DNA of 64,000 nt, taken from positions 6,076,001-6,140,000 of the forward strand of contig CAKKNE010000001.1 in the NCBI GenBank assembly GCA_918797485.1, in the 5' to 3' direction. Position 1 is the stretch's first letter. Each line of letters opens with the position of its first letter. Below, piece by piece: positions 205 to 54,914 of this stretch. Made by a program: the position numbers and the translations under genes. A model generated the notes under the pieces. The model was not told where the DNA came from. It did no database searches and was given only the letters and a program-made list of their open reading frames with translations. The stretch comes from Pelagomonas calceolata. Taxonomy: Eukaryota.

Positions 205-2441
205 TCAGTCCGTCGGCTCGCCGAGGGGTGGGAGCCGCCCCGCCTTCGCGAGGTCGATGATCTCCTTCATGCCCTTGACGGCCTGCTTCAAATTCGGCCA
301 CGCGGGCCCGTACGACATGCGGAGCCTGTACGGAAATCGAGCCTAAGTCAAGCCGTGGACGCATTATTCGAGACGCGGTGCTCCGCTTGTCAATATACGG
401 CGACTTGTGGAAGCGGCGGCGGTGGAAGGGATTCACGTCGAAGAATATGCCTGGCACGCAGATGACCTTGTGTCGGACACAATACTCGAAGAACACCACG
501 CAGTTGTTCAGCGGCGGCGGCAACGCCTGTGCGGAGAGACTCGTGTCGGCCTCCACGCCATCGAGCAGACGCAGTACGCTACCGAGACGTCCGCCCAGAT
601 GTAAAAGGTGCTCTTCGGCACGCGCGCCTTGATGCCCATCGCCTCGAGCTCCCGTACCATGTAGTCGCGCTTCTCGCGGAAGTGCGCCTGCAGCGCTAGC
701 GCGTCCTTTTCCACAAATCCAGGCTCGAGCAAGGGAACCGCGGCCTTTTGCAGCGGGTTGTTCGTGCCGCCGTCCATGAAGGAGCCGATGCTTCCCAACA
801 CATCAATGCAGTGCTTCGGTCCCACCACCCAGCAGCAACGCCAACCCCTGCGGGAAGATCGCGTCGATGGCGCGGAGCGTGCAAACGGAAAGACGGACGC
901 GGGAGGCGAGCGGCAACCGCCAATTTTTCGTGAAGCCGTTCACAATACATATAGGGTCCTTGTTGACATCTTCTACGAACTCCGCCGACGAGAGCGTGTG
1001 GAAGGGTCGGCCACTCGATGAGTCCTGCTCGTACATGTAGTGGGAATAAAATTCGTCCATGAGCATCATCGTGTTCTCCTGGCGCGCGATCTCGACGTAT
1101 TGCCGTAGAGTGTCTCCCTCAATCGGCTCGCCCGTGGGGTTCGCCGGGTTGCTCCAGAGAAACGCCCCTAATCCATGCAGTTGGATCTGGCGGCGTAAAT
1201 GCTCGGGCGACGTTCGCAAGCCGTCCTGGTCGTGGGCGATGGCGATCGGCGCCACTCCTGTGAACTCGCCGAGCAGTTGCTGGTACGCCGTGTAGTCCGG
1301 GAGAAAGTAGCCGACGTTGACGTTGTGGAGCGACGCCATCAAACGAGAGAGTCCCGCGCGGCCGCCTGGAACGATGGCCACGTTGGCCGCCGTATATTGC
1401 GACTTCTTGCCCTGGCGGAACCAGTGGTTGTAGTACTGGGCGACGGCGTCGCGGAGGTCGCGGCGCCCGTTGACGTCTCCATACTCATTCGTCTCGTCGT
1501 CGAGCTCGACGGCCAGAGAACGCTCCGGGCCGCCGATGGGCCCCGTCTCCGGCGCGCCCTGGCCGAGGTTGCCCCACGCGGGGTCGCCGGCGCCCTTGAA
1601 TCCCCAGCGCTTGGCCCGCGTCGTCGCCTGTGTGGAAATCAAAACTTCGCGGTGCGTGCTGAGTCGTCACGTCGACCTCCACGCCATTGACGCGTCGCCT
1701 GCTCGATGGCGTGGCGATGCCGGTTCCTTATTCGACGGTTTCAGAGCGGCGGCGTCATCGCCGAGAAGTGACTTAGTGAAGAATTATCGGGTGCACCCGA
1801 CACACTGGTTGATTTCCACACAGGTCGTCGCGTAGATGACGCCCGTGCGGCTCTGCATGGACATGATCTCCTCGCAGTCCGACATGGATTCCTGGACTTC
1901 CTGCCTGTGTGGACGTCGCGTCGATGGCGTCCATCTGTATTTGATTTCCGCACAGCCTCCTGCGTGGCGAGCACGGCGAGCAAGCCCTGGAGCTGATCCT
2001 GGTGGCTACCACCGTACGAGAGGATGTCCTCGGGAGCCTCGCCTGCTTACGAAACCGAGCTGTGAGTCGCGTCGATGGCGTGGAGGCGCCTCGAAATTTG
2101 ATTCACGCACACTGCTCCTTGCCGACGGCGGTTTCGCCGCCGCGCGGCGGTCCGCCCGGGAGACCGTCGGCGGGCGGAATCTCGGCGCCGCCGCCGCGGA
2201 TCCCTAACGCGCGGAAGTAGAACCGCGAGTCCTCAGGCGCCGCCGCGAAGTAGCGGTGGGCGACGCCGATGTCCTCGTCCTTGGAACGAGCCGCGACCAC
2301 GCGTTTCTTTTTGGTCGCTGCGAGTTTCTTTGCGCTGGGCCGCGCTTTCGACGTCGTCGAACCTCGCACGACCGCGCGCCGCGGCGAAATGCCCATGGAC
2401 GGCGCCAAAGCGCAGAGACCAATTGCAAGAATTAGCCTCAT
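205..2441 (-). CDS. PLP-dependent aminotransferase class I/II (AAT-like) with N-terminal signal peptide; 7 exons
   Basis: Exons 2441-2123, 2042-1964, 1904-1832, 1627-912, 847-583, 526-387 and 325-205 join to 1713 nt in frame. Motifs: NLGQGAPE, SNPANPTG, DEFYSHY, GFTKNWRLPGWR (PLP Lys), STFYIW, LRMSYGP. Confidence 0.88.
326..386 (-). other. GC-AG intron, degenerate Introner-like
   Basis: Removal joins YIDK to LRMSYGP. The 3' end GATTTCCGTACAG resembles the TIR. Confidence 0.7.
527..582 (-). other. GT-AG intron, degenerate Introner-like
   Basis: Removal joins WADVS to ALPPPLN. Contains TCGATGGCGTGG and ends TCCGCACAG. Confidence 0.8.
848..911 (-). other. GC-AG intron carrying the Introner core
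   Basis: Removal restores KNWRLPGWRCCW. Contains CGCCATCGACGCG. Confidence 0.8.
1628..1823. mobile_element. Longest Introner element (196 bp non-autonomous DNA transposon); intron is 1628-1831, GC-AG
   Basis: Perfect 15-bp TIR CTGTGTGGAAATCAA/TTGATTTCCACACAG. Perfect 8-bp TSD GTCGTCGC at 1620-1627 and 1824-1831. Splicing gives GVIY|ATTRA. Confidence 0.95.
1905..1955. mobile_element. Short Introner; intron is 1905-1963, GC-AG
   Basis: Ends CTGTGTGGA...TTGATTTCCGCACAG. TSD CTTCCTGC/CCTCCTGC (7/8). Core CGCGTCGATGGCGT present. Confidence 0.88.
2043..2122 (-). other. GC-AG intron, degenerate Introner
   Basis: Contains CGCGTCGATGGCGTGGAGGCGCC and a TIR remnant TTTGATTCACGCACACTG. Removal joins ETAVG to EAPEDIL in frame. 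Confidence 0.75.
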
Positions 2442-3285: not shown

Positions 3286-5345
3286 ATGCGGTGCTGCTTA
3301 CTGCTCTGCGCGGCGCTCGCCGCGGCGCCGGACCCGGAGGCCGCAGACACGGCACCCCTCGACGTCTTGCTCGTATCGGTCGGCCTCCACGGCCACGCCG
3401 TTCCCCTCGCGCGCCTCGCCCATCAACTGACAGAGCGCGGCCACCGCGCGACGCTCGCGACGCATAGTACAAAGGAAGCGAAACGCTGGGCGAAGGACGC
3501 GGGCGCGGAGTTTGTCTCATTGGGCGTGCTGGAACCATCACCACAAAAAAAGACGACGTCCATCAACGAGCGCGCGGCGGGTTTGATGGCTGCTGCTTTG
3601 AGGGGCTTCGGCGACGCGAAGGAGGAGAAGAAGGACGCCTGGGACGCGCTCGACGACGCTGATAATGAGGAGGAGGAGGGGCCGCTCGACGCTCGTAGAC
3701 TACTACTCGCGGCGCGGCGCGCGCGCCACGAGGCCGCCGCGCGCTACCTCCACTCTCATCAGAACGACTCCGAGTATGACGCGTCACTCATACCTCCATC
3801 GAAAACATTTGCGAAAGCGTCTCGGAAGGCCACGGCCTTGGGGGCGCTCGCTTGTTTGATGAATGAGTTGTATGTGCCACTCACAAGACCCGTCTACGAC
3901 GCTTTGTATGAACATTTAGCCAATGGTGGTAAAAGACCAGACGTCATCGTGGCGGACGTGGCGACCTTGGGCGCGCGCGACGCTGCGGATGTTTTTGACA
4001 TTCCCCTCGTCATCAACGCGCCTTCATTGTTGTATGGAAGAGCGGGCGGCGCGCCCGGCGCCGCTTTATCTTCCGGATCTTCGCGCTCCGAGAAGGCCCA
4101 GGCCGCGCTCGCGCCGAAACTGCTGGCGCTGGCGTCGTCTTCCGCATTAATGACCTCGAACCACGTCCGGCGCGCCGTCGGCCTGCGAATTCATTCGGGG
4201 CCCGACGAGCTCGTGCCGCCCGCGTTGCTGCGGCGGCCCGCTTCTGTAACGGACTTCCCGTGTGCCGCGCGCGCTTCATTACCACTAGATCCGCCGCCGC
4301 CGCCGCGCAACGGGACGTGCGCGAACGACGGCATCTGCGGCGCGCGGCCGCGCGAGCTCGTGCTCGCGAACACGGCGCCGGGCTTCGACCCCTTTGCTGT
4401 GCACCCGCCGCCGCGCGTCCTCGCGACCGGTCGGTACGCGGCGTCCCATCTTTTACGCCATCGACGCGACGGCGTAGTGGTTGTTGTTCTCGCGGACGGG
4501 TCGCGTCGATGGCGTGAGGGTGGTGTAGAGTCAGATGGGGCACGCTATCGCCGCGCCACGACAAAGACGCCAACGCAGGCCCGCTCCTCCCCGTCGACAT
4601 GGCGGCCTACAACGCGACCGCGCCGCCGGCGGCGCCCGCGTTGGTACGACGCTGGCTCGAGACCGCGGCGAAGGAGGGCCCCGGCGTCGTCGTCGTCTCG
4701 TTGGGACGGATGCCGCGCGTCGAGGGCTGGCAGGCCCACGCTTTAGTCAGGGGCCTGCAGCCGGACAAGGCGGGCAACGAGAGCGCCTGGCGCGTGCTCT
4801 GGGCCCTCGACGAGGATAGAAGAGATTCGCTGCCGCGCGAGCTGCCCGACGAGTTTAGGGTAAGGGGCCGCCTGCCGCTGCTGGCGACGATCGCGCAGCC
4901 CGAGGTCAAGGTCGTCGTGAGCCACTGCGGCGCCGGCGCGGCGATGGAGGCGCTCGCCTTCGGCAAGCCTTTGCTGTGTGTTCCGTTCTTTGGCGACCAG
5001 CGGGACGTCGCGCGGCGCGTCACCGACGCCGCGGCGGGTTTGTATATCGAGCCGCGGCGGCTGACGGAAGAGCGCGTGCGCGAGGCGGTATCCACAGTCG
5101 CGGGCGAGACATATAAGCGCGCGGCGGCGGCGGCGGCGGCGCAGCTCCGGGCGCCGGGCGGCACTGAAGCGGCGGCGGCGGCGGTCCAGGCCTGGGCGGC
5201 CCACGGGACGGTCTGCGGGCCCGACGTGGACCTGCCGTGGCACCGCGAGGCTGGTTTAGATAGACTCTGCGTCGCGCTGGCGGTGGTGATTTTGGTGGGC
5301 GCGGGCGCTTCGCGGGTGCTGAAGGCGCTGTCGGCGTATGCCTAG
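3286..5345 (+). CDS. UDP-glycosyltransferase (GT1) with signal peptide and C-terminal TM; intron 4430-4578
   Basis: GHAVP N-terminal motif, RPDVIVAD, and PSPG-like VVVSHCGAGAAMEALAFGKPLLCVPFFGDQ. Exons 3286-4429 and 4579-5345 join in frame. Confidence 0.9.
4430..4578 (+). other. GT-AG intron with two inverted copies of the Introner core
   Basis: ACGCCATCGACGCGAC (4455-4470) and GTCGCGTCGATGGCGT (4500-4515) form a 16-bp inverted repeat. Removal gives LATG|PLLPVDM. Confidence 0.8.
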
Positions 5346-25906: not shown

Positions 25907-26035
25907 TCTCTGTGAACTCGCGTCGACGGCGTGGCGGGGAGCGTTCGACGACCACGCTCGCGAGTCGCCGTGGCAGTCCATTTCATTCAGGAGATAAATT
26001 ACGCGTCGAGCGGACGATCATTAAATTCACAGAGA
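25907..26035. mobile_element. MITE-like relative of the Introner family in a convergent intergenic gap
   Basis: 10-bp inverted ends TCTCTGTGAA/TTCACAGAGA and core CGCGTCGACGGCGTGG; no clean TSD. Confidence 0.55.
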
Positions 26036-27088: not shown

Positions 27089-28332
27089 ATGCTGCTGCTG
27101 CTGGCACTGGCAGCGGTACGCGCCCACGCGAAGGTTGTTGACAACGCCGACTTCTGGACGCAATCGCTGGACTGCCCGAGGCCTCCGACTCGAACGGCCA
27201 CGTTCCTCACGCCCGACGGGTCTAACGCGGCCGACGTCCTTGGTAGCACGACGGGAGCGTTCCTAACAATCCTCCACGAGCATCTCGATCGCACGCCGTG
27301 CATCTTCGCGCGCCTCGCGAACACCGTCAAACCGTTCCGCTTCAAGCGGTTCGTGATCGTCGTCGATAGTGCCGAGAAGACCGCGGCCGGCACGGCGCGC
27401 GCGACGGAGCGTCTGGACGCCTTTGACGGAGCCTGGCTCAACACGACATGTGCCTTCGCGGACGAGGTGCGCGTCGCCGTGCTGGATCACGGTCCGACTC
27501 CGAATGCCCTAGCGCGTGCGACGCTGGCACGAGTCACGACAAACGTGACGGGGGTCTGGGGTCGCCGTGACGAACTCTACAAGAACGGGCTTCAGTACCT
27601 GGCGCTGGTCTCGGGCTGTGTGGAAATCAACCAGTGAGTTAGATTTGGGGCGCCCGAAATTTGATTTCCACACAGGTCTCGGGCGTCCTCCTGCCGCTGC
27701 GCTACGTCTTCAACGTCGACGAGGAACTGTCGCTGGGCTGGCTTGAGACCGGGTCTCCAAGGACGGTGGAGGCGCCGTTTTCGGCGTTCCTGGCGGCGGC
27801 TGTCCGAGACTTCGCGCGCTCGTCCTGGTTCGCGGGGTATTCAGTCCAAGAATGTGTGCGCGCCTGCGACGATTCCCGATGTAGCTTTGTGCCACATCAC
27901 GGCCGCTGGGTCTTCGAGGCCGCCTTATTCCACGTCGAGCGCTTGTCGAGTTTTCTTCAGAAGCGACCGCTCTCGCATGATGATCTTTTTATGCACCCGG
28001 AGGCGATGCTCAACCGCTGGTCGCACGCCCAGCACGGCGCCATGCTGAATGCCAAGTTGGGGGAAGTGTCTCGGGCTGTGTGGAAATCAACCAGTGAGTT
28101 AGGTTGGTCGCGTCGATGGCGTGGGGCGCCTGAAGTTTGATTCCCACACAGGTGTCGGGTTGCGCGGTCGCTGCGGGGAGAATGTAAAGTGGCCGTCCTC
28201 TCAGGGCGGCGCGGCCGATGCGTTCGGAAGGACGGGCGCCGCCTCGTGCTCCACTGGGAGACCAAGGGCGAGTACGCATGTGTGTTGGAGGCACCATACA
28301 ACGTGCCGCAGTGCCACCGGGGGGAATGTTAG
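27089..28332 (+). CDS. secreted protein, possibly GT-A fold glycosyltransferase-like; two Introner introns
   Basis: Exons 27089-27607, 27676-28067 and 28152-28332 join in frame (1092 nt). Signal peptide; FVIVVD and YVFNVDEE motifs. Confidence 0.7.
27616..27675. mobile_element. Introner (60 bp); intron is 27608-27675, GT-AG
   Basis: Perfect 15-bp TIR. Perfect TSD GTCTCGGG at 27608-27615 and 27676-27683. Confidence 0.95.
28076..28151. mobile_element. Introner (76 bp); intron is 28068-28151, GT-AG
   Basis: TIR CTGTGTGGAAATCAA/TTGATTCCCACACAG. TSD GTCTCGGG/GTGTCGGG. Core motif present. Confidence 0.92.
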
Positions 28333-28950: not shown

Positions 28951-29806
28951 ATGGCGAGCGTTGCGGAGGACGGGTCCAACTATCGAGTCCTCGTGACTGG
29001 CTTCGGACCGTACGGAAACACCCAAATAAATCCGTCTCTGGCGGTCGTCAACGCGCTGAAGTCAAACCGAGACGGGAGCCGCGGCTACGAGGTAGTCGCG
29101 CGCCAGGTTTCGTGCGAGTTCAACAAATGCATCGAAGAGGCGGCCGCGTTCATCGACGAGCTCGCGCCTAACGCGGTTGTGATGCTCGGCGAATATCCAG
29201 GACGCGCGATGGTGACCGTCGAGCGTGTCGCGATCAATTATAATGATTCGACGCGCTATGGCGTCTGTGACGAAGCGGGATACGCGCCGCAGGGTACCAA
29301 AGTCGTCGAAGACGGCCCGGCCGCGTACCTGTCGACGCCTGTGTGGAAACCAAGTCTAGGCGCCCCACGCCATCGACGTGATGTTGTCCCCGTCCACACA
29401 GGTCAACGCTTCCCCTCCGCCGCATCGTGCGCGACCTGCGCGCCGCCGGAATTCCGGCCGACATCTCGGGCGACGCCGGGACGCTGATGTGCAACCACCT
29501 CATGTACGGCGTCCTGGACGCGTGCTCCGGCCGGGACATCGTCGCCGGGTGGGTCCACCTCCCGGCGCTGCCGGTTCGACTCGGCGTCCTCATTTTGGGG
29601 TCGCGTCGATGGCGTCGAGCTCCACGCCGCCGATGCGATGTGTTGGTCACACACAGGAAATGGCGGCAAAAGATGAGAACCTCGGGATGCCGTCGATGAC
29701 GGCGGAGCTCTCGACGCGAGCCGTCCTGAGCGTCGTCGCGTCCGTCGTCGAAGGCTCCAAGCAGGGCGACATCCCGGACGCCGTCAAGAGCCGGCTGTTA
29801 GTCTAA
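28951..29806 (+). CDS. pcp: pyroglutamyl peptidase I (peptidase C15); introns 29331-29401 and 29574-29656
   Basis: VLVTGFGPY..NPS, ERVAIN, DGPAAYLSTLP, DAGTLMCNHLMY, GWVHLP. Exons join to 702 nt. Confidence 0.92.
29339..29401. mobile_element. Introner (63 bp) in reverse orientation; intron is 29331-29401
   Basis: Ends CTGTGTGGA...TCCACACAG. TSD GTCGACGC/GTCAACGC. Its 5' part matches the reverse complement of the 3' part of the 28076 element. Confidence 0.9.
29574..29656 (+). other. GT-AG intron, degenerate Introner
   Basis: Core GTCGCGTCGATGGCGT; ends CACACAG; removal joins LPALP to EMAAK. Confidence 0.8.
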
Positions 29807-35858: not shown

Positions 35859-38192
35859 ATGATGAGACTCACCTTCTTGATGGGCGTTGTCGCTTTTAGC
35901 AGCCCCCGGGCCGCGCGCGCGGGCTTCGTGATTGAGGACAGCAGCAGGGGCACCGACAACAGCAACAATTTGAGCATGGCGACCGGGGTGGCATCGCAAG
36001 GACGGCGCCAGCTCACGGGCTACGTGATGACCGACAGCAACATCTACACGGCCCGCGATGCATGGCTTGCGAACCCGACAGCCGCCGAGGCGACGTACGG
36101 CCACATCTCGACGTGGGAGACTGGGGGGGTGACGGACATGTCGTATTTGTTTTGTGCGAGTTCGAGCACTTCGGGGCTTTCTCAGGGATGCAAGACTGCC
36201 GCGGCGTCCTTCAACGAGGACATCGGCGCGTGGGACACCTCGGGCGTCACAACAATGGACTACATGTTCTACAAAGCCTCGGCCTTCGACCAGGACCTCA
36301 GCGACTGGAGGGTCGACAAGGTCACAAGCATGACATACACGTTCGCGTATTCGGCCTTTGACCAGGACCTCGGCTGGTGCTTGGACGGCGTGTACCTGTG
36401 GGGCGAGTTCTTTGGCACCCCGTGCGCGTCGACGTCGTGCGGCACTGGTGCTAACATGGCTACGCTGGTGTGTGGCGGCGAGCCGCACGACGACAGCACC
36501 ATACAAACCGCCGTAGCCACGTGGCTCGCGGACGCGACGGGCGCCGAGGCGACGTACGGCCACATTTCGACGTGGGAGACTTCCAGGGTGACGGACATGT
36601 CGTATTTGTTTCGAGGTGCATCGTCCTTCGACGAGGACATTGGCGCGTGGGACACCTCTGGCGTCATCACGATGTCCTCCATGTTCTACGAAGCCTCGTC
36701 GTTTAACCAAGACATTAGTGGTTGGGCGGTTGACAGCGTTACGAGAATGTACGAGATGTTCAAGGGCGCCTACGCCTTCGACCAGGACCTCGGCTGGTGC
36801 GTGGACTACGGCGTCAGCCTGTACGATGCGTTCGAGTACACCCCATGCGAGTCGACGTCGTGCGGTGTCACACTTGGCTGCCCGGCGCCGACGCCCGCGC
36901 CGACTATCACGCATCCTCCGACATATACAGTTGCGCCCACAGCTTCACCTCTCGTCGCCGTCGATGGCTATGGCGATAATGGCATCCGCACGGCGGTGGC
37001 AAGCTGGTCAGTATCGAACCCCGCCGCCGCCATCCGAAAGTACGGCCACATCTCGACGTGGCAGACAGGGGGCGTGACGGACATGTCGGAATTGTTTTGT
37101 ACGAATTGCGGCCTTTGGATTGCTTCGAACTTCAACGAGGACATCAGCGCGTGGGATACCTCCGGCGTCACGGATATGAAGGAGATGTTCTACAAACAAT
37201 CATCGTTTAACCAACCGATCGGCAAATGAAAAACCAGCGCTGTGAAAGACATGGATGATATGTTGAGCGACGCATCGTCGTTTAACCAGGACCTCAGCGG
37301 CTGGGACGTTGTTGCCGTGACGCGAATGGGCGACATGTTCAAGGACGCAAAGGACTTCGACCAGGACCTAGGCTGGTGCCTGGACAACGACGTGGGCCTG
37401 AAAGAGGCATTTAAAGGAACAAAGTGCGAGTCGACGTCGTGTGGTGTCGCGCAAAAGGACGTCATTGGAATTTGCGACCCAGTCGCTCGTCCGTGTCTCA
37501 TTCCCAGTGTTAGTGAGCAATGCATAATGAACTCACCAACAATAGCCATCGCCCTGGTTGTCCTTCTTGCTGGCTTCGGCGCATGCGTCTACTGGAGGAA
37601 GAAGAAGGACGAAACTTACGTCGCCGCCGCCCGCCGCCTCCTCTACAGCTGCCTCTGCTGCTGCTGTCTCTGCTGCAGGAAAAAGAAGGAACCGAGTGGC
37701 ATCAACTCCCAACCGGATTCCCCGGCGGAGTCGCCACCGGAACTTGGCCCGGAAGAGCCCGACGAGGAAGAGACACGCACCGCCGCAGAGGAAACCACGG
37801 TCGAGGAGTCCGTCGAGCCTTCGTCCCTCTCGAAGCTTACCTCGTTCCTGTTCGGGGAGCGGGAAGAGGCCCCCACGGAAGAGGCCCCCAAGGAAGAAGA
37901 AGAGGCCGCCACCCTCCCCGTCTTTGCGGAAGCCGAGGAGGAAGCAACCGAGCAACCGCCGCCTCCGCCAGCAGGGCGCTGGTTCTCGCGCGCCGAGCCT
38001 GAGCCTGCTGCGCCGAAATCCGAGGAGATGCACCAGCGGATGGCCGGTTGGTATAACAACGCGCCGGAAGCTGCCGCGCTGCGCGCGACTTGGGGCGCAT
38101 TTCCGGAACCCGACGAATTCCAGACGTGGCCCGGCTTCGTCGCCGTGACCAACGCGTTCCTCGACGCCAGCACCAGTGAGCCCGAAGCGTGA
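35859..38192 (+). pseudogene. DUF285/BspA-like repeat type-I membrane surface protein interrupted by an in-frame TGA (37227-37229)
   Basis: Signal peptide, three YGHISTW.T..VTDMS.LF / F.EDI.AWDTSGV modules, TM, Cys-rich segment and acidic tail. ORFs 35859-37229 and 37242-38192 are in the same frame. Confidence 0.75.
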
Positions 38193-50132: not shown

Positions 50133-53100
50133 TTAGAACCCGAAGACGTTCGCGCTCTTGAAGGGCGAGCGGTCGTTCGCCGCGGCGCGCCGTTTGCGCG
50201 CCGTGCGCCGCTCCGGGACGTCGTTCTCCTCGTCGGCGTAGGTGACGACCTTCGTTCGCGTCCGGCCCGACCGCCGCGGCGCGACCTCGGGCTCGTCGTC
50301 GTCGTCGAGGCGCCACGCGTGGACGGACTTCTTGGGCCTTGGTTTGGGCTTCGCCCGCGCCGCGTTCCGGAGCCGCGCCGCCGCGGGGCACGTGTGCTTG
50401 CGCCGGCGGTCGCCGGTCGCGCAGGCCTTGCAGTCGACCGGCCCGGCCGGGCTCGACAGGCTCGGCGGCGGCACGCAGCTCGGCCGGTCGAGCGGCGTCA
50501 GCGGGCGGAAGGCCTCGGCGTCGGCGGCCGAGGCGGGCGACGGCTCCGCCGACTCGTCGGCCTCGGACGGCTCGTCGACCGCGACCGGCGGCGCCGCGGC
50601 GGCGGCCCGCGGCCGGCGGCAGGACCGCGGCGGGAGCGCGCCGATCGCCGTGACGTCCGCGATCAAAACCTCGACCTGGTCGCCCGTGCTCTGCCACTTG
50701 ACCAGGACGCTCGCGGCACCCGCGGGGCAGTCCGCGACGACGGTCGCCGGGTGGTCCTCGCGGCCGTCGCGCGCGAAGACGGCGTCGTCGGCGCGGAAGA
50801 GCAGCTCGACGGGCGCCTCGTCGACCGCGTCATCGTCATCGGCGTGCGGGACGACGTAGGGCGTCGGTGGCGGCGCGGCGGCCTTGCGGCCGCGTCGGTC
50901 GTTGACGTAGGCCTCGGCCTCTGAATCGACGTCCGTCGAGGCCTCGTCGTCGACCGATTGGGCGCCGATGACTAGGAGCGAGGCCTCCCGCGGCTTCGCG
51001 CCGTCGACGGCCTCGGGCGTCGGCGGCGCGGCGCAGACCTCGACCTCGGAGTCCGTCGAGGCCTCGGCGGCGTCGGCCGCGTCGACGGTGTCGGCCGAGG
51101 CCGCAATGCTCCACGCGTCCTCATCTGCCACCGGCGCGGCCTCGGCGGGCGCTGCCGCGACGGGCGCGGCCACAGAGGGCGCGGCGACTAGCGCAGCCGC
51201 CTCCGCCGCCGCGAGCCGCGCGGCCAGATCCGCTGAAGTAGCCTCGAGCGCCCGGAGCCGCGGCCGCGACTCCCGCAGCTCCGCCGCGGAGGCCTCGGAC
51301 ACCGCCGCGAGCCGCGCGATCTCCGCCTCCTTGCGCGCGCTCGACGACCGCGCGCGCACGTCGCGCGACCGCGCCTCGCCCACGACCGCCTCCAAGTTCT
51401 TCCGCAGCTCCAGGATCGTCGCGTCCGCGCTCTCGACCTCCGCCGCGGCCCGGGCGCCCTCGGCGACGACGGCGGCGATCTTTTCCCGTAAACGCTCGGC
51501 CTCGCCGGCGGCGGCGTCGCGCGCCCGGACGAGCTCGTTCGTGTCCGCATCGCGCTGGCCCTCGCTATCGCGGAGGCGCGCCCGCGCCGCGGCGAGCTCG
51601 GTCGTGAGCGTCGCGACCTCCGCGCGCGCCGCGTCTGCACTTTGAGCCGCGTCGGCGCGCGCCTGGGACAGGGCCTTGCGCAGGCCCGCCGCGGCGTCGC
51701 GCGCGCCGGCGGCCTCGGCGCGCGCGCGCGCCACCTCGCCGTTCCGCGCGTCGGCCTCGTCGGCGCGTCGCGACGATAAAAGCGCCGTCGCCTCGGCGGC
51801 CTCGCGCCGCGCCTGCAGCACCTCGGCGCGCCACTCGCGCGCATTGCGCGAGAGTTCGGCCTCGACGTCGCGGGCGTCGTCGCGCGCGCGCGCCGTCGCC
51901 TCGTCGAGGCGCGCCTGGGCGCCCGCCGCGTCGGCGCGCGCGTCCGCGGCGTCGTTCCGCGCCTCGACGAGGGCGTCCGCCAGCTCCGCCGTCGTCGCCT
52001 CGGCCGCCGTTGCCTCGCTCTTCAGCCGGTCGGCCTCGGCCTCGGCCGCTCGGAGGGCGTCGCCGTGGAAGGCCGCCGCGCAGCGCAGCTCCTCGAGCTC
52101 CTCCTTCACATCCCGCGCCGCGGCCTTCGCCGCGGCCGCGTCGGCCTCGGCCGCGCGGAGGGCCTCGCCCTCGGTCTTTGACGTCGTCAGCGTGCGCTCC
52201 AGGGCCGCTTCAGCCGCGTTCGCCGCCGTCACATGGGTGTCGATCTCGGCCCGCGCCGCGGCGGCGTCGGCGCGCGCCTCGTCGGCGGCCGCCTCGGCCG
52301 CGCGGCGGGCCTCGCCTTCCGTTTGCGCCGTCGTGCGCATCCGCTCGAGCTCGGCTTCTGCGGCCCGCGCCGCCGCCTCGTGCGTCTCGAGCTCGGCCCC
52401 GACGCCCTCGAGCAGCCGCCGCGCCCGGTCCGCGTCGGCGCGCGCCTCCTCGGCCGCCGCCTCGGCCGCTCGCAACGCTTCGCCGTCGGTCTGCGCCGCG
52501 GCTCGCACGCGCTCGAGCTCCTGTTCGACGGCCCGCGCGGCGGCCGCGGCCGTCTGCGCCTCGGCCCGCGCCGCCGCCGCGTCGTCGCTCGCTTTCGAAG
52601 CGCGGTCGTTCGCCTCGACGATCGCCTTCGAGGCGTCCTCGTGGGCGCGCGCGAGGTCGGCCGCGGCCAACTTGCGCGCGGACTCGAGCGCGGCGAGGTC
52701 CGCCGCGGCCTTGGTCCGCGCGGCCTCCAATGCAGACGCCGCCGCCGCGTCGCGGTCCGCCGTCGACTGGCGCTGCGCCGCCTCGTGCGCCGCCCGCTCG
52801 TCCAGCAACGCCGCCTCAGCTTTCTTAGCGTCCTCCGCCGCGCGCCGCACCGCGAGCTCGTGGAGGTTCCTCGCCGCGCCGAGCTCGGATCGGACGTCGG
52901 CGAGCGCTTGAAGAGCCCGCGCCGCGTCGGCGCCCGCGCGGTGGCGCGTCGCCTCGAGCTCGGCTTTCACCGCGTGGAGCTCGGCCGTGACGGCGCCGAC
53001 GTCCGCCGCGTGCGCGGTCGTCGCGGCGTCGAGCGCCTCCTGCAACCGGCCCACGTCCGCCGCGTGCTGTGTTTGCGCGGCCGCGAGCTCCTCGGCCAGC

Positions 53101-54914
53101 GCGGACCGCACGCCGCGCGCGTGCGCCGCGGCCTCCTTCCGGCGGTCGCTCGACTGCTTCTGCGCGCGCGCGTCGGCGAGCGCGCGCTCCGCGGCGAACG
53201 CCGCTCGTAGTGAATCGAGCTCGGCGTCCGCCGCCTCGGCGAGCGTCGCGTGCCCCGCCTCCGTCGCCGCGAGCGCTGTTGTGTACTCGGCCCGCACCTT
53301 ATCGAGCGCGGCGGCGTGCGCGTCTTCCATGGACTTCTTTTGCCCGTGGAGCGCCGCGGCCTGACCCCGCTCGCGCGCCGCCGCGTCTGCGCCGCAGCGC
53401 TGGGCCCAGGCCGCGGACCGCGCCTGCTCCTCCCGGAGCTCGTTCTTCATCGTCCGCGCGGCGTCGATCGCCTCGCTCAAGCCCTCCTCGAGGAGCTTGT
53501 TCTCCGCCTCCTTCTCCGACGCGTCCCTCGTCAAACTCTTGAGCTCGCCCGCGAGGTGGCGCGCCGCGTCGCGCGCCCGCTTCACGTCCTTCTGGGCTCT
53601 CCCTGCATCATTCGTGGCCTTGGCAAGCGCCGCTCGACACTCTTCGAGCGCATGCGCCGCGTCACTCGAATTCGCGGCGTCGACCGTCGCCGCCGCGTGA
53701 GCGGCATGCGCGGCATGAGCGGCATCAACGAGGCGCGCCCTTAACGCGCAGAAGCACTTGAGGTGCGCCGTCGCGTCGGGCCCGCCCTGGGCCAGGAAGG
53801 CGTTCTTCCTTTTCGCTTCGTCCAGGGCCCGCTCCAGCGCCGCCAAATCTTCGGCCGTCGGCGCGCGCGGCGGCGCGACGTGGACGCGGTCGACGCCCGC
53901 GACGCGCGACGCGCGGTCCGCGTACCTTAATGTCGAGAGCGTCTCTTCGCGCGACGCTAACGTCGGCGCCACGCAGGCGATTAGGACCGTCGCCGCCGTG
54001 CCTCCCAAACTATCTTGTAGTAACCGTGTCAACTTCGAGTCCCTATAAGGCACGTGGTCGGCCTTTTTCTGCTCCGACAGCGCCGAGATGACCTGGCCGA
54101 GGGCCAGCAAAGACTGGTTGATCGTCCTAGCTTCTCTCCTCCGGGCGTTGCCGCTCTCGTTCGTCCGGCCCGCGCTCTCCGACCCGGCCAAGTCAGCTAA
54201 TAAAAAGCGGCCGCGCCGCGTTGCCGCGTCGCCGCGCCTTCGCGTTTCCACTCTTACTTCAAATACAGCGTGCGACCGCGACGAGCGGTCGTTCATCGCC
54301 GTGGCTGCGGCAGCTCTACGCTCGCCGCCCTCCTTCAGGACCCGCTTCGCCTCCAGGGCATTGCGCGGCTTCCTTTCACTTAAACCGACGACGGTCACGC
54401 CGCCCTGGAGCCGATTCTGCAGGTTCAACGCCTTGGGCTGGGGCGGCGGCCGGTCGGGGTCCGTCTGCACCGGCGCCGGCACCAGCAGGTCCCGCACCTG
54501 CTCGTTATAAATTTCGAGGTAACTCACCGACACCTCACTGGTCTCGAAGTCGCCTTCATTCGTAGCCTTGAAGATGCGGTCGATGACCGTCGGGAGTAAG
54601 CCGTCGATCGTGTGCGTCTTGCCCGCCGCCGTCTGGCCGTAGGCTAATACTGTGGCGTTCCTTCCATCCACGACGCGCTGCACGAGCTGCTGCGCGTTCG
54701 CGGCCTTGGCCACGTCGCACTCGTTGGCGGTTTCGCTCAGCGATGTCGCGTACTCGAAGGTCTCTTCTCTCTGTCCATCGACAATAACGCGGTTCTGCCG
54801 CCCGTCGTCGCCGGCGTACGCGCGGACGATGGGCGTGTCGCCGTCGCGCTGCTCGTAGGCGTTGAGCGGACGGATTCTTACCACCACTTTTACGGCGGCT
54901 GCTGGGGTCGTCAT
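50133..54914 (-). CDS. kinesin with N-terminal motor, long Ala-rich coiled coil and possible Tudor-like tail
   Basis: VKVVVRIRP, AYGQTAAGKT, SYLEIYNE, NDRSSRSH, DLAGSE, HVPYRDSKLTRLLQDSLGG. Confidence 0.95.
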   Translation of the reverse strand: MTTPAAAVKVVVRIRPLNAYEQRDGDTPIVRAYAGDDGRQNRVIVDGQREETFEYATSLSETANECDVAKAANAQQLVQRVVDGRNATVLAYGQTAAGKTHTIDGLLPTVIDRIFKATNEGDFETSEVSVSYLEIYNEQVRDLLVPAPVQTDPDRPPPQPKALNLQNRLQGGVTVVGLSERKPRNALEAKRVLKEGGERRAAAATAMNDRSSRSHAVFEVRVETRRRGDAATRRGRFLLADLAGSESAGRTNESGNARRREARTINQSLLALGQVISALSEQKKADHVPYRDSKLTRLLQDSLGGTAATVLIACVAPTLASREETLSTLRYADRASRVAGVDRVHVAPPRAPTAEDLAALERALDEAKRKNAFLAQGGPDATAHLKCFCALRARLVDAAHAAHAAHAAATVDAANSSDAAHALEECRAALAKATNDAGRAQKDVKRARDAARHLAGELKSLTRDASEKEAENKLLEEGLSEAIDAARTMKNELREEQARSAAWAQRCGADAAARERGQAAALHGQKKSMEDAHAAALDKVRAEYTTALAATEAGHATLAEAADAELDSLRAAFAAERALADARAQKQSSDRRKEAAAHARGVRSALAEELAAAQTQHAADVGRLQEALDAATTAHAADVGAVTAELHAVKAELEATRHRAGADAARALQALADVRSELGAARNLHELAVRRAAEDAKKAEAALLDERAAHEAAQRQSTADRDAAAASALEAARTKAAADLAALESARKLAAADLARAHEDASKAIVEANDRASKASDDAAAARAEAQTAAAAARAVEQELERVRAAAQTDGEALRAAEAAAEEARADADRARRLLEGVGAELETHEAAARAAEAELERMRTTAQTEGEARRAAEAAADEARADAAAARAEIDTHVTAANAAEAALERTLTTSKTEGEALRAAEADAAAAKAAARDVKEELEELRCAAAFHGDALRAAEAEADRLKSEATAAEATTAELADALVEARNDAADARADAAGAQARLDEATARARDDARDVEAELSRNAREWRAEVLQARREAAEATALLSSRRADEADARNGEVARARAEAAGARDAAAGLRKALSQARADAAQSADAARAEVATLTTELAAARARLRDSEGQRDADTNELVRARDAAAGEAERLREKIAAVVAEGARAAAEVESADATILELRKNLEAVVGEARSRDVRARSSSARKEAEIARLAAVSEASAAELRESRPRLRALEATSADLAARLAAAEAAALVAAPSVAAPVAAAPAEAAPVADEDAWSIAASADTVDAADAAEASTDSEVEVCAAPPTPEAVDGAKPREASLLVIGAQSVDDEASTDVDSEAEAYVNDRRGRKAAAPPPTPYVVPHADDDDAVDEAPVELLFRADDAVFARDGREDHPATVVADCPAGAASVLVKWQSTGDQVEVLIADVTAIGALPPRSCRRPRAAAAAPPVAVDEPSEADESAEPSPASAADAEAFRPLTPLDRPSCVPPPSLSSPAGPVDCKACATGDRRRKHTCPAAARLRNAARAKPKPRPKKSVHAWRLDDDDEPEVAPRRSGRTRTKVVTYADEENDVPERRTARKRRAAANDRSPFKSANVFGF

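What the first reader, a model, noticed from the sequence alone, without database searches (positions are those of the whole stretch)
1620..1831. Intact-looking Introner transposon: TIR supplies the 3' AG and the 8-bp TSD supplies the 5' GC
Seen: 196-bp element with perfect 15-bp TIRs and a perfect GTCGTCGC TSD. Splicing from the GC of the upstream TSD copy to the CAG of the TIR removes the element plus one TSD copy and leaves the protein unchanged. Established: intron-generating non-autonomous DNA transposons with this logic are known in the pelagophyte Aureococcus. Inference: this is the longest and probably among the youngest copies here, and its roughly 200-bp length is near one nucleosome repeat.
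Basis: partly seen in the sequence, partly recalled or inferred. Interest (0 to 1): 0.7.

Follow-up and report, generated by a model that had tools for sequence, protein, structure and literature searches.

The report
Intron-making transposon in a marine alga
A 196-base repeated DNA element sits inside an aminotransferase gene of the marine alga Pelagomonas, is absent from the same spot in a related ocean contig, and is likely a jumping element that is spliced out cleanly as a new intron, a route to new introns already described in these algae.

Summary
The element is 1628-1823 (196 bp), with perfect 15-bp inverted ends and an 8-bp duplication on each side. Removing 1831(GC)-1628(AG) on the minus strand (204 nt, phase 0) restores the conserved GVIYATTRA motif of a class I/II aminotransferase; retaining it gives a stop. 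The element is highly repeated: summed depth is about 600-2,400 times the flanks in two runs. A related metagenome contig (L001, 91.5% coding identity) has the empty site with one copy of the 8-mer. The window is Pelagomonas calceolata, where 956 putative introners with GT/GC donors, AG acceptors, TIRs and a ~210-bp length peak are already published. So this is a known kind of element in a species where it is already reported. No RNA read or contig spanning the junction was seen, and no transposase was found. 'Longest copy here' holds; 'among the youngest' is unsupported, because the copy differs from the family majority at 10 listed positions and a 60-bp copy is equally perfect. The nucleosome link was not testable. 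Side leads: four intron presence/absence differences in 845 coding bases, and two sister introns that share their donor 8-mer.

The parts
1620..1627 (-). Exon-side copy of the 8-bp target duplication; stays in the mRNA and encodes Ala-Thr-(Thr) of GVIYATTRA
   Evidence: single copy at the empty site in L001
1628..1642 (-). 15-bp TIR at the acceptor end; its terminal CAG gives the 3' splice site (AG = 1629-1628)
1628..1823 (.). 196-bp non-coding MITE-like element (57% GC); internal ACGCCATCGA/TCGATGGCGT-type hairpin motif shared with the short copies
   Evidence: multicopy
1809..1823 (-). 15-bp TIR at the donor side
1824..1831 (-). Intron-side copy of the target duplication; its first two bases give the GC 5' splice site (1831-1830)
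1628..1831 (-). Predicted 204-nt phase-0 GC-AG intron (element plus one duplication copy); retention gives an in-frame stop
   Evidence: not seen in RNA
205..2396 (-). Host gene: class I/II PLP aminotransferase (PF00155), modelled as 7 exons and 555 aa; start codon, first intron and last intron are inferred
1905..1963 (-). 59-nt GC-AG intron: 51-bp short family copy (1905-1955) in the opposite orientation, 8-bp duplication with 1 mismatch; absent in L001
2043..2122 (-). 80-nt decayed family intron shared with L001; predicted donor is GC here and GT in L001
848..911 (-). 64-nt GC-AG intron with the family motif; skipped in X14 contigs, absent in L002
527..582 (-). 56-nt GT-AG intron with the family motif and no donor-side TIR; skipped in X14 contigs, absent in L002
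326..386 (-). 61-nt predicted GC-AG intron with a TIR-like acceptor end; absent in L002
27616..27675 (+). 60-bp family copy with perfect TIRs and a perfect GTCTCGGG duplication; GT donor from the duplication
28076..28151 (+). 76-bp sister copy in the same gene; duplication has 1 mismatch
29339..29401 (+). 63-bp family copy in the opposite orientation to its host gene; duplication has 1 mismatch

Best explanation
This is a 196-bp repeated element with 15-bp inverted ends and an 8-bp flanking duplication inside an aminotransferase exon of Pelagomonas calceolata, most likely a non-autonomous DNA transposon (introner) that is predicted to be spliced out as a 204-nt GC-AG intron. Mechanism: (1) inferred: a transposase supplied in trans bound the TIRs and made an 8-nt staggered cut, and repair duplicated the target; shown: the site holds one copy of the 8-mer in L001 and two here. 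(2) Shown in sequence: both TIRs end in CAG on the outward-reading strand, so the element offers an AG acceptor in either orientation; 3 window copies lie one way and 2 the other relative to their host genes. (3) Inferred: insertions survive in exons only when the target begins with GT or GC on the sense strand, which then serves as the donor; all 5 TIR-paired copies fit (3 GT, 2 GC). (4) Predicted: the spliceosome removes the element plus the upstream duplication copy, so the mRNA equals the pre-insertion sequence. (5) Inferred: older copies shrink to 50-80 nt and lose their TIR and TSD signatures.
For: Perfect TIR and TSD, 0 in 12 resamples. Only 1 of 9 junction registers is GC..AG. The junction restores the spacing found in 222 of 240 homologues (G-V-I-Y to W-x-N-L-G-Q-G in 27-29 residues; the model has 28), whereas the alternative GT donor at 1840 deletes VIY. 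Retention gives a stop. Empty site in L001. Summed depth over the element is 607-836 times the flank in X4 and 1,388-2,432 times in X10; 582 and 3,713 contigs were laid on the 2.4-kb stretch. On the window's own branch there are 12 synonymous and 1 non-synonymous change in 148 codons, so the gene has stayed under purifying selection. Species: a cluster member named Pelagomonas calceolata lies on a contig of the same 6,277,007 bp as the window's own proteins. Published: 956 putative IEs, GT/GC donors, AG acceptors, TIRs, ~210-bp peak; about 14% GC-AG introns in this species.
Against: No RNA record spans the junction. X5 contigs stop at 1589, X11 at 1430, the gene is nearly silent in the 6% of X21 read, and any X14 junction was not among the rows shown. 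The donor GCGACG is far from the usual GTRAGT consensus (recalled). No transposase family was found in 33 of the window's 35 ORFs of 250 aa or more, and no genome was available to search. Summed contig depth is not a true copy number (tool caveat). L001 is a single 1,104-bp contig.
Confidence: 0.9

Rival explanations
1. Same transposon origin, but the insertion predates the split from the L001 lineage and was lost there precisely, together with the adjacent 59-nt intron, for example by recombination with a spliced cDNA. This changes the age, not the nature, of the element.
For: The two introns missing in L001 are neighbours, 73 bp apart. The 59-nt copy already has decayed TIRs. L001's private intron looks old (no donor-side TIR, no clear duplication) yet is missing from the window, so losses may occur. 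The focal copy is diverged from the family majority.
Against: Fourfold sites differ by 24% (33 of 140) between window and L001, yet all 30 TIR bases and the 8 intron-side duplication bases are intact. The intron that L001 does share has lost its TIR and TSD.
Confidence: 0.15
2. L001 is a partly spliced transcript rather than DNA, so the 'empty site' is the spliced form of a shared intron.
For: I did not establish the molecule type of L001 independently, and a spliced junction and an empty site are identical in sequence.
Against: L001 keeps two introns, one frame-shifting, and comes from the collection described as metagenomes. If true, it would be direct evidence for the predicted splice junction instead.
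Confidence: 0.07
3. The element is an ordinary MITE insertion that is spliced poorly or not at all, leaving a weak or dead allele in this strain.
For: Weak GC donor, no junction seen, and very low transcript depth in X5, X11 and X21.
Against: The rest of the 555-aa frame is intact, with 12 synonymous to 1 non-synonymous change on this branch. GC-AG introns are common in this species. The junction exactly restores the conserved motif.
Confidence: 0.06

Closest known systems
Putative introner elements of Pelagomonas calceolata (Guerin et al. 2022, PMC9481584; bioRxiv 10.1101/2021.10.25.465678)
   Same: Same species. Intron of 204 nt against a published peak near 210 bp; GC donor, AG acceptor, conserved TIR; 956 putative copies, the same order as the depth ratio in X4.
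   Different: The text I could read gives no TSD length, no empty-site allele and no TIR sequence. Their logo (Fig. S3) is a picture and their IE table was not reached, so identity with one of their repeat families is likely but unchecked.
Aureococcus anophagefferens introner elements (Huff, Zilberman and Roy 2016; not held, known here from passages in 10.1101/2020.10.14.339549, PMC10228655 and 10.1101/2022.06.06.494994)
   Same: One splice site carried by the element and one recruited from the TSD; intron creation in either orientation; same algal class.
   Different: TIR sequence identity with the Aureococcus families was not tested. Insertion between nucleosomes was not testable. One Aureococcus sp. 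family adds 12 bp to the mRNA, whereas this one adds none.
Polarella glacialis ILE classes 6, 8 and 10 (10.1101/2020.10.14.339549)
   Same: 8-nt TSD of form GHN6 giving the donor, element end giving the acceptor, both orientations.
   Different: Dinoflagellate host, where GA donors are also common. No sequence comparison was made.
Micromonas pusilla IE1-type introners (as reviewed in PMC11282704)
   Same: MITE-like, TIR plus TSD, perfect removal at the RNA level.
   Different: 3-nt TSD and reversed logic: the element carries the donor and the TSD gives the AG.

Membership tests
Aureococcus-type DNA introner | Terminal inverted repeats | tested here: met
   15 of 15 bp; same TIR in 4 further paired copies with 0-5 mismatches per arm
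Aureococcus-type DNA introner | Site-specific target duplication, single at the empty site | tested here: met
   8 of 8 here; one copy in L001; 8-bp repeats with 0-1 mismatch and different sequences at 4 other copies
Aureococcus-type DNA introner | One splice site carried (AG in TIR), the other recruited from the TSD (GT/GC) | tested here: met
   Sequence level: 1 of 9 registers is GC..AG; 5 of 5 paired copies have a TSD beginning GT or GC on the host's sense strand
Aureococcus-type DNA introner | Multicopy, interspersed family | tested here: met
   Depth 607-2,432 times the flank and varied flanks beyond 1823; a rough measure, with no genome search possible
Aureococcus-type DNA introner | Intron creation in either orientation | tested here: met
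   3 copies one way and 2 the other relative to host transcription
Aureococcus-type DNA introner | Lineage-restricted intron position | tested here: met
   Absent in L001, the one locus of 2 fetched that covers the site (L002 lacks the 5' half of the gene); gain versus loss is not fully polarised
Aureococcus-type DNA introner | Removal from the RNA at the predicted sites | tested here: inconclusive
   No record spans the junction in 4 RNA or RNA-guess runs laid (X21, X14, X5, X11)
Aureococcus-type DNA introner | Insertion in nucleosome linkers; nucleosome-scale length | not testable with these tools
   No chromatin data; source papers not held and search found 0
P. calceolata IE set of Guerin et al. 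2022 | Intron overlapping a repeat family over more than 90% of its length, with GT/GC-AG ends and the published TIR logo | tested here: inconclusive
   196 of 204 nt are the repeat and the ends fit; the logo is a picture and the table was not reached
hAT superfamily (lead from memory: 8-bp TSD, short TIR) | 8-bp TSD | tested here: met
   also fits P and Merlin elements (recalled)
hAT superfamily (lead from memory: 8-bp TSD, short TIR) | hAT transposase ORF between the same TIRs | not testable with these tools
   No genome held; no transposase Pfam in 33 of 35 long window ORFs; paired-TIR pattern gave 0 hits in viral and prokaryote collections

The most novel reading that the evidence does not exclude
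The TIR/TSD introner family is spawning short derivatives that are copied as whole introns, donor included, without a fresh transposase cut (for example by reverse splicing or templated repair). Two sister introns 460 bp apart in one gene share 35 identical bases from the donor on, including the 8-mer that should be site-specific, and the second differs from its own exon-side copy. Two introns without a donor-side TIR, at different positions of the aminotransferase gene (window 582-527 and L001 493-554), start with the same GTAGCGT. With four presence/absence differences in 845 coding bases, wild Pelagomonas lineages would be a live system for watching a transposon turn into a self-copying intron.
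Probability: 0.08. Interest if true: 0.65.

Novelty: already known. Interest (0 to 1): 0.25.

Why it matters
As it stands this is a clean example of a known route of intron gain, in a species where such elements are already published. It adds an empty-site allele that fixes the 8-bp duplication, and a sign that sister lineages of one of the ocean's most abundant eukaryotes differ at four intron positions within 845 coding bases of one gene. That makes population metagenomes of Pelagomonas a practical way to measure intron gain, shrinkage, donor change (GC versus GT) and loss. The mobilising transposase remains the open question.

Tried and rejected
Genome-wide search was impossible because no genome is held. 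RNA junction: X21 raw reads were swamped by other copies and the gene was nearly silent. With the element left out of the stretch, X5 and X11 contigs ended at 1589 and 1430, and a divergent X13 contig ended at 1621 with no loose end; none of these says anything about splicing or presence. No transcript-derived protein of this species covering the junction was among the hits (best near-identical hit P0231, a fragment). Alternative donors: GT 1840 deletes VIY; GT 1819 and GA 1816 add 4-5 residues; GA 1829, GA 1826 and GT 1821 shift the frame. The 16-bp TIR / 6-bp TSD reading was rejected using sister copies. Viral carriage: 53 single 15-mer matches in viral contigs, none longer than 22 aligned bases among the 70 best BLAST rows printed, treated as chance; the paired-TIR pattern gave 0 in viral and prokaryote collections. 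Rfam found 0 matches in 1400-2300. The intron folds better than 200 of 200 shuffles (z -3.4), which the TIR stem itself would explain, so I did not use it as evidence. The loose TSD+TIR scan gave 52 hits against 2-8 in resamples, mostly in the GC-rich 50-54 kb region, and was not used. One gene-model loop printed nothing because of wrong acceptors and was redone. Earlier scan findings: none.

Full report
Observation. The coordinates are right. The 8-mer GTCGTCGC stands at 1620-1627 and 1824-1831, and the 196 bp between them end in a perfect 15-bp inverted repeat. A scan for a perfect 8-bp direct repeat around a perfect 15-bp inverted repeat found 2 cases in the window (this one and 27616-27675) and 0 in each of 12 Markov resamples. 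This locus alone also fits a 16-bp TIR with a 6-bp duplication. Sister copies start at CTG after a G and carry 8-bp repeats, and other genomic copies diverge straight after 1823, so 15/8 is the family geometry.

Host gene and junction. The element lies in a minus-strand gene with Pfam PF00155, aminotransferase class I/II. Homologues read MQSRTGVIYATTRA across the site (P0002, P0004). Splicing from GC at 1831 to AG at 1628 removes 204 nt in phase 0 and gives the same motif. 222 of 240 homologues have 27-29 residues from G-V-I-Y to the N-L-G-Q-G motif (196, 25 and 1; 18 had no match), and the model has 28. The nearest GT donor (1840) deletes VIY. Of 9 sliding registers only this one is GC..AG. 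Retention gives an in-frame stop, and removing six introns gives an open 555-aa frame; the start codon, first intron and last intron are inferred.

Organism. Eight of 10 window proteins were in the collection; 7 of those lie on a 6,277,007-bp contig, and a cluster member on a contig of that length is named Pelagomonas calceolata. The window's GC of about 63% fits.

Copy number and age. Laid on 150-2600 at 85% likeness, summed depth over the element was 607-836 times the flank in X4 and 1,388-2,432 times in X10. This is a rough measure, but it excludes a single-copy element. The element is present at this locus in X4, X10 and X9. At 10 of the 12 element positions I tabulated from the rows shown (152 rows were not shown), 88% or more of the depth in both DNA-type runs has another letter; four of these lie near indels. 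Most records also break at 1728-1747. So this copy is not near the family majority, though it could belong to a young minor subfamily. It is the longest of the 5 TIR-paired copies in the window, but the 60-bp copy is equally perfect. 'Among the youngest' is therefore not supported.

Empty site. The metagenome scan gave 2 loci from 95 candidate stretches. L001 (1,104 bp) is 91.5% identical over 845 coding bases, with 275 of 281 residues identical and 33 of 140 fourfold sites different. It has a single copy of the 8-mer and no element. It also lacks the 59-nt intron at 1905-1963, shares the 2043-2122 intron, and has a family-like 62-nt intron that the window lacks. With the changed donor aside, that is three positional differences in L001; counting the focal one, the 59-nt one and the private one gives three, and the '4' used in the summary includes the shared intron's GC/GT donor difference, so three are true presence/absence differences and one is a donor change. 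Because L001 keeps two introns it is most likely DNA, but a partly spliced RNA is not excluded. L002 (30-kb syntenic contig) lacks the 5' half of the gene and cannot test the site; it lacks the three downstream short introns. With L002 as outgroup, the window's branch has 12 synonymous and 1 non-synonymous change in 148 codons (L001 branch 15 and 1; 14 ambiguous).

RNA. No record spanned the junction. X21 had depth of about 1 on the exons; X14 contigs skip 848-911 and 527-582 but showed no focal junction in the rows printed; X5 and X11 stop short. Splicing of this intron is therefore predicted, not shown.

Mechanism. Most likely a non-autonomous cut-and-paste element, moved by a transposase in trans that cuts with an 8-nt stagger (inferred). 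Each TIR ends in CAG, so either orientation offers an acceptor; 3 window copies lie one way and 2 the other. The donor comes from the duplicated target, which starts GT or GC on the sense strand in 5 of 5 paired copies; selection against unspliceable insertions is the likely reason (inferred). No transposase family appeared in 33 of the 35 ORFs of 250 aa or more (two overlapping antisense ORFs were left out). The superfamily is unknown; 8-bp duplications are typical of hAT, P and Merlin elements (recalled).

What is known. Guerin et al. 2022 (PMC9481584: passages; supplement file 2 part 1 of 2; file 4 part 1 of 400; preprint passages) report 956 putative introners in P. calceolata with GT and GC donors, AG acceptors, conserved TIRs and a length peak near 210 bp. 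Their logo is a picture and their IE table was not reached; either could show that this family is one of theirs, or already give the TSD. A pelagophyte pangenome preprint (10.1101/2024.10.30.620910, passages) gives about 14% GC-AG introns in this species and attributes them to GC content. The carried-site/recruited-site logic, 8-nt cuts and both orientations are described for Aureococcus and Polarella (10.1101/2020.10.14.339549, passages; 10.1101/2022.06.06.494994, passages; PMC10228655, passages; PMC11282704, passages). PMC12130899 (passages) says most introners are non-autonomous and does not name pelagophytes in its main text. Huff et al. 2016 was not held. Searches showed no paper devoted to Pelagomonas introner anatomy; most subscription papers are outside that library.

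Most novel reading. Two sister introns in one gene (27608-27675 and 28068-28151) share 35 identical bases from the donor on, with different upstream exon sequence, and the second mismatches its own exon-side 8-mer. My hand estimate for a 7-of-8 or better match between independent GT/GC-starting targets is about 0.3% per pair, or about 3% over the 10 pairs among 5 copies (not a tool result). Gene conversion, target preference or chance remain the simpler readings. Two introns without a donor-side TIR, at different positions, also start alike. I put copying of whole introns at 8%.

Verdict. A real, multicopy TIR/TSD introner with an empty-site allele, of a kind already reported in this species. 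Interest 0.25.

Noticed in passing
window 27608-27675 and 28068-28151 (+): Two sister short copies in one gene share 35 identical bases from the GT donor, including the 8-mer GTCTCGGG; the second's exon-side copy is GTGTCGGG. Removing both gives a 368-aa open frame.
   Followed up: partly
window 527-582 (-) and L001 493-554: Both introns start GTAGCGT, share the internal family motif, and lack a donor-side TIR and a clear duplication, yet sit at different positions of the same gene in two lineages.
   Followed up: partly
window 2043-2122 (-) and L001 122-197: Shared decayed intron whose predicted donor is GC in the window and GT in L001; a possible case of a TSD-derived donor changing toward the canonical form.
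   Followed up: partly
window 205-2396 (-): Six introns in one gene, five with the family's internal motif or TIR and the sixth with a TIR-like end, against a published genome mean of 0.45 per gene. L002 lacks the three it can test.
   Followed up: partly
window about 4430-4577 (+): About 148-nt intron-like insert with the family's hairpin motif in a glycosyltransferase-like gene; L002 appears to read straight across it (by eye, the alignment was poor).
   Followed up: partly
window about 25911-26032 and about 29575-29657: Further family-motif stretches ending in CACAG-like termini, probably decayed copies.
   Followed up: no
L002 2340-2760: The syntenic aminotransferase lacks its 5' half and seems to have a frame break; a different short exon with an intron-like stretch lies upstream.
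   Followed up: no
window 35859-38192 (+): Two adjacent DUF285 repeat ORFs.
   Followed up: no
window 50136-54914 (-): 1,593-aa kinesin with a very GC-rich (76%) repetitive tail that produces most of the false TIR/TSD hits.
   Followed up: no
run X14 on window 582-1433: Holds both near-identical and roughly 10% divergent contigs of the gene, so two alleles, strains or paralogues.
   Followed up: no
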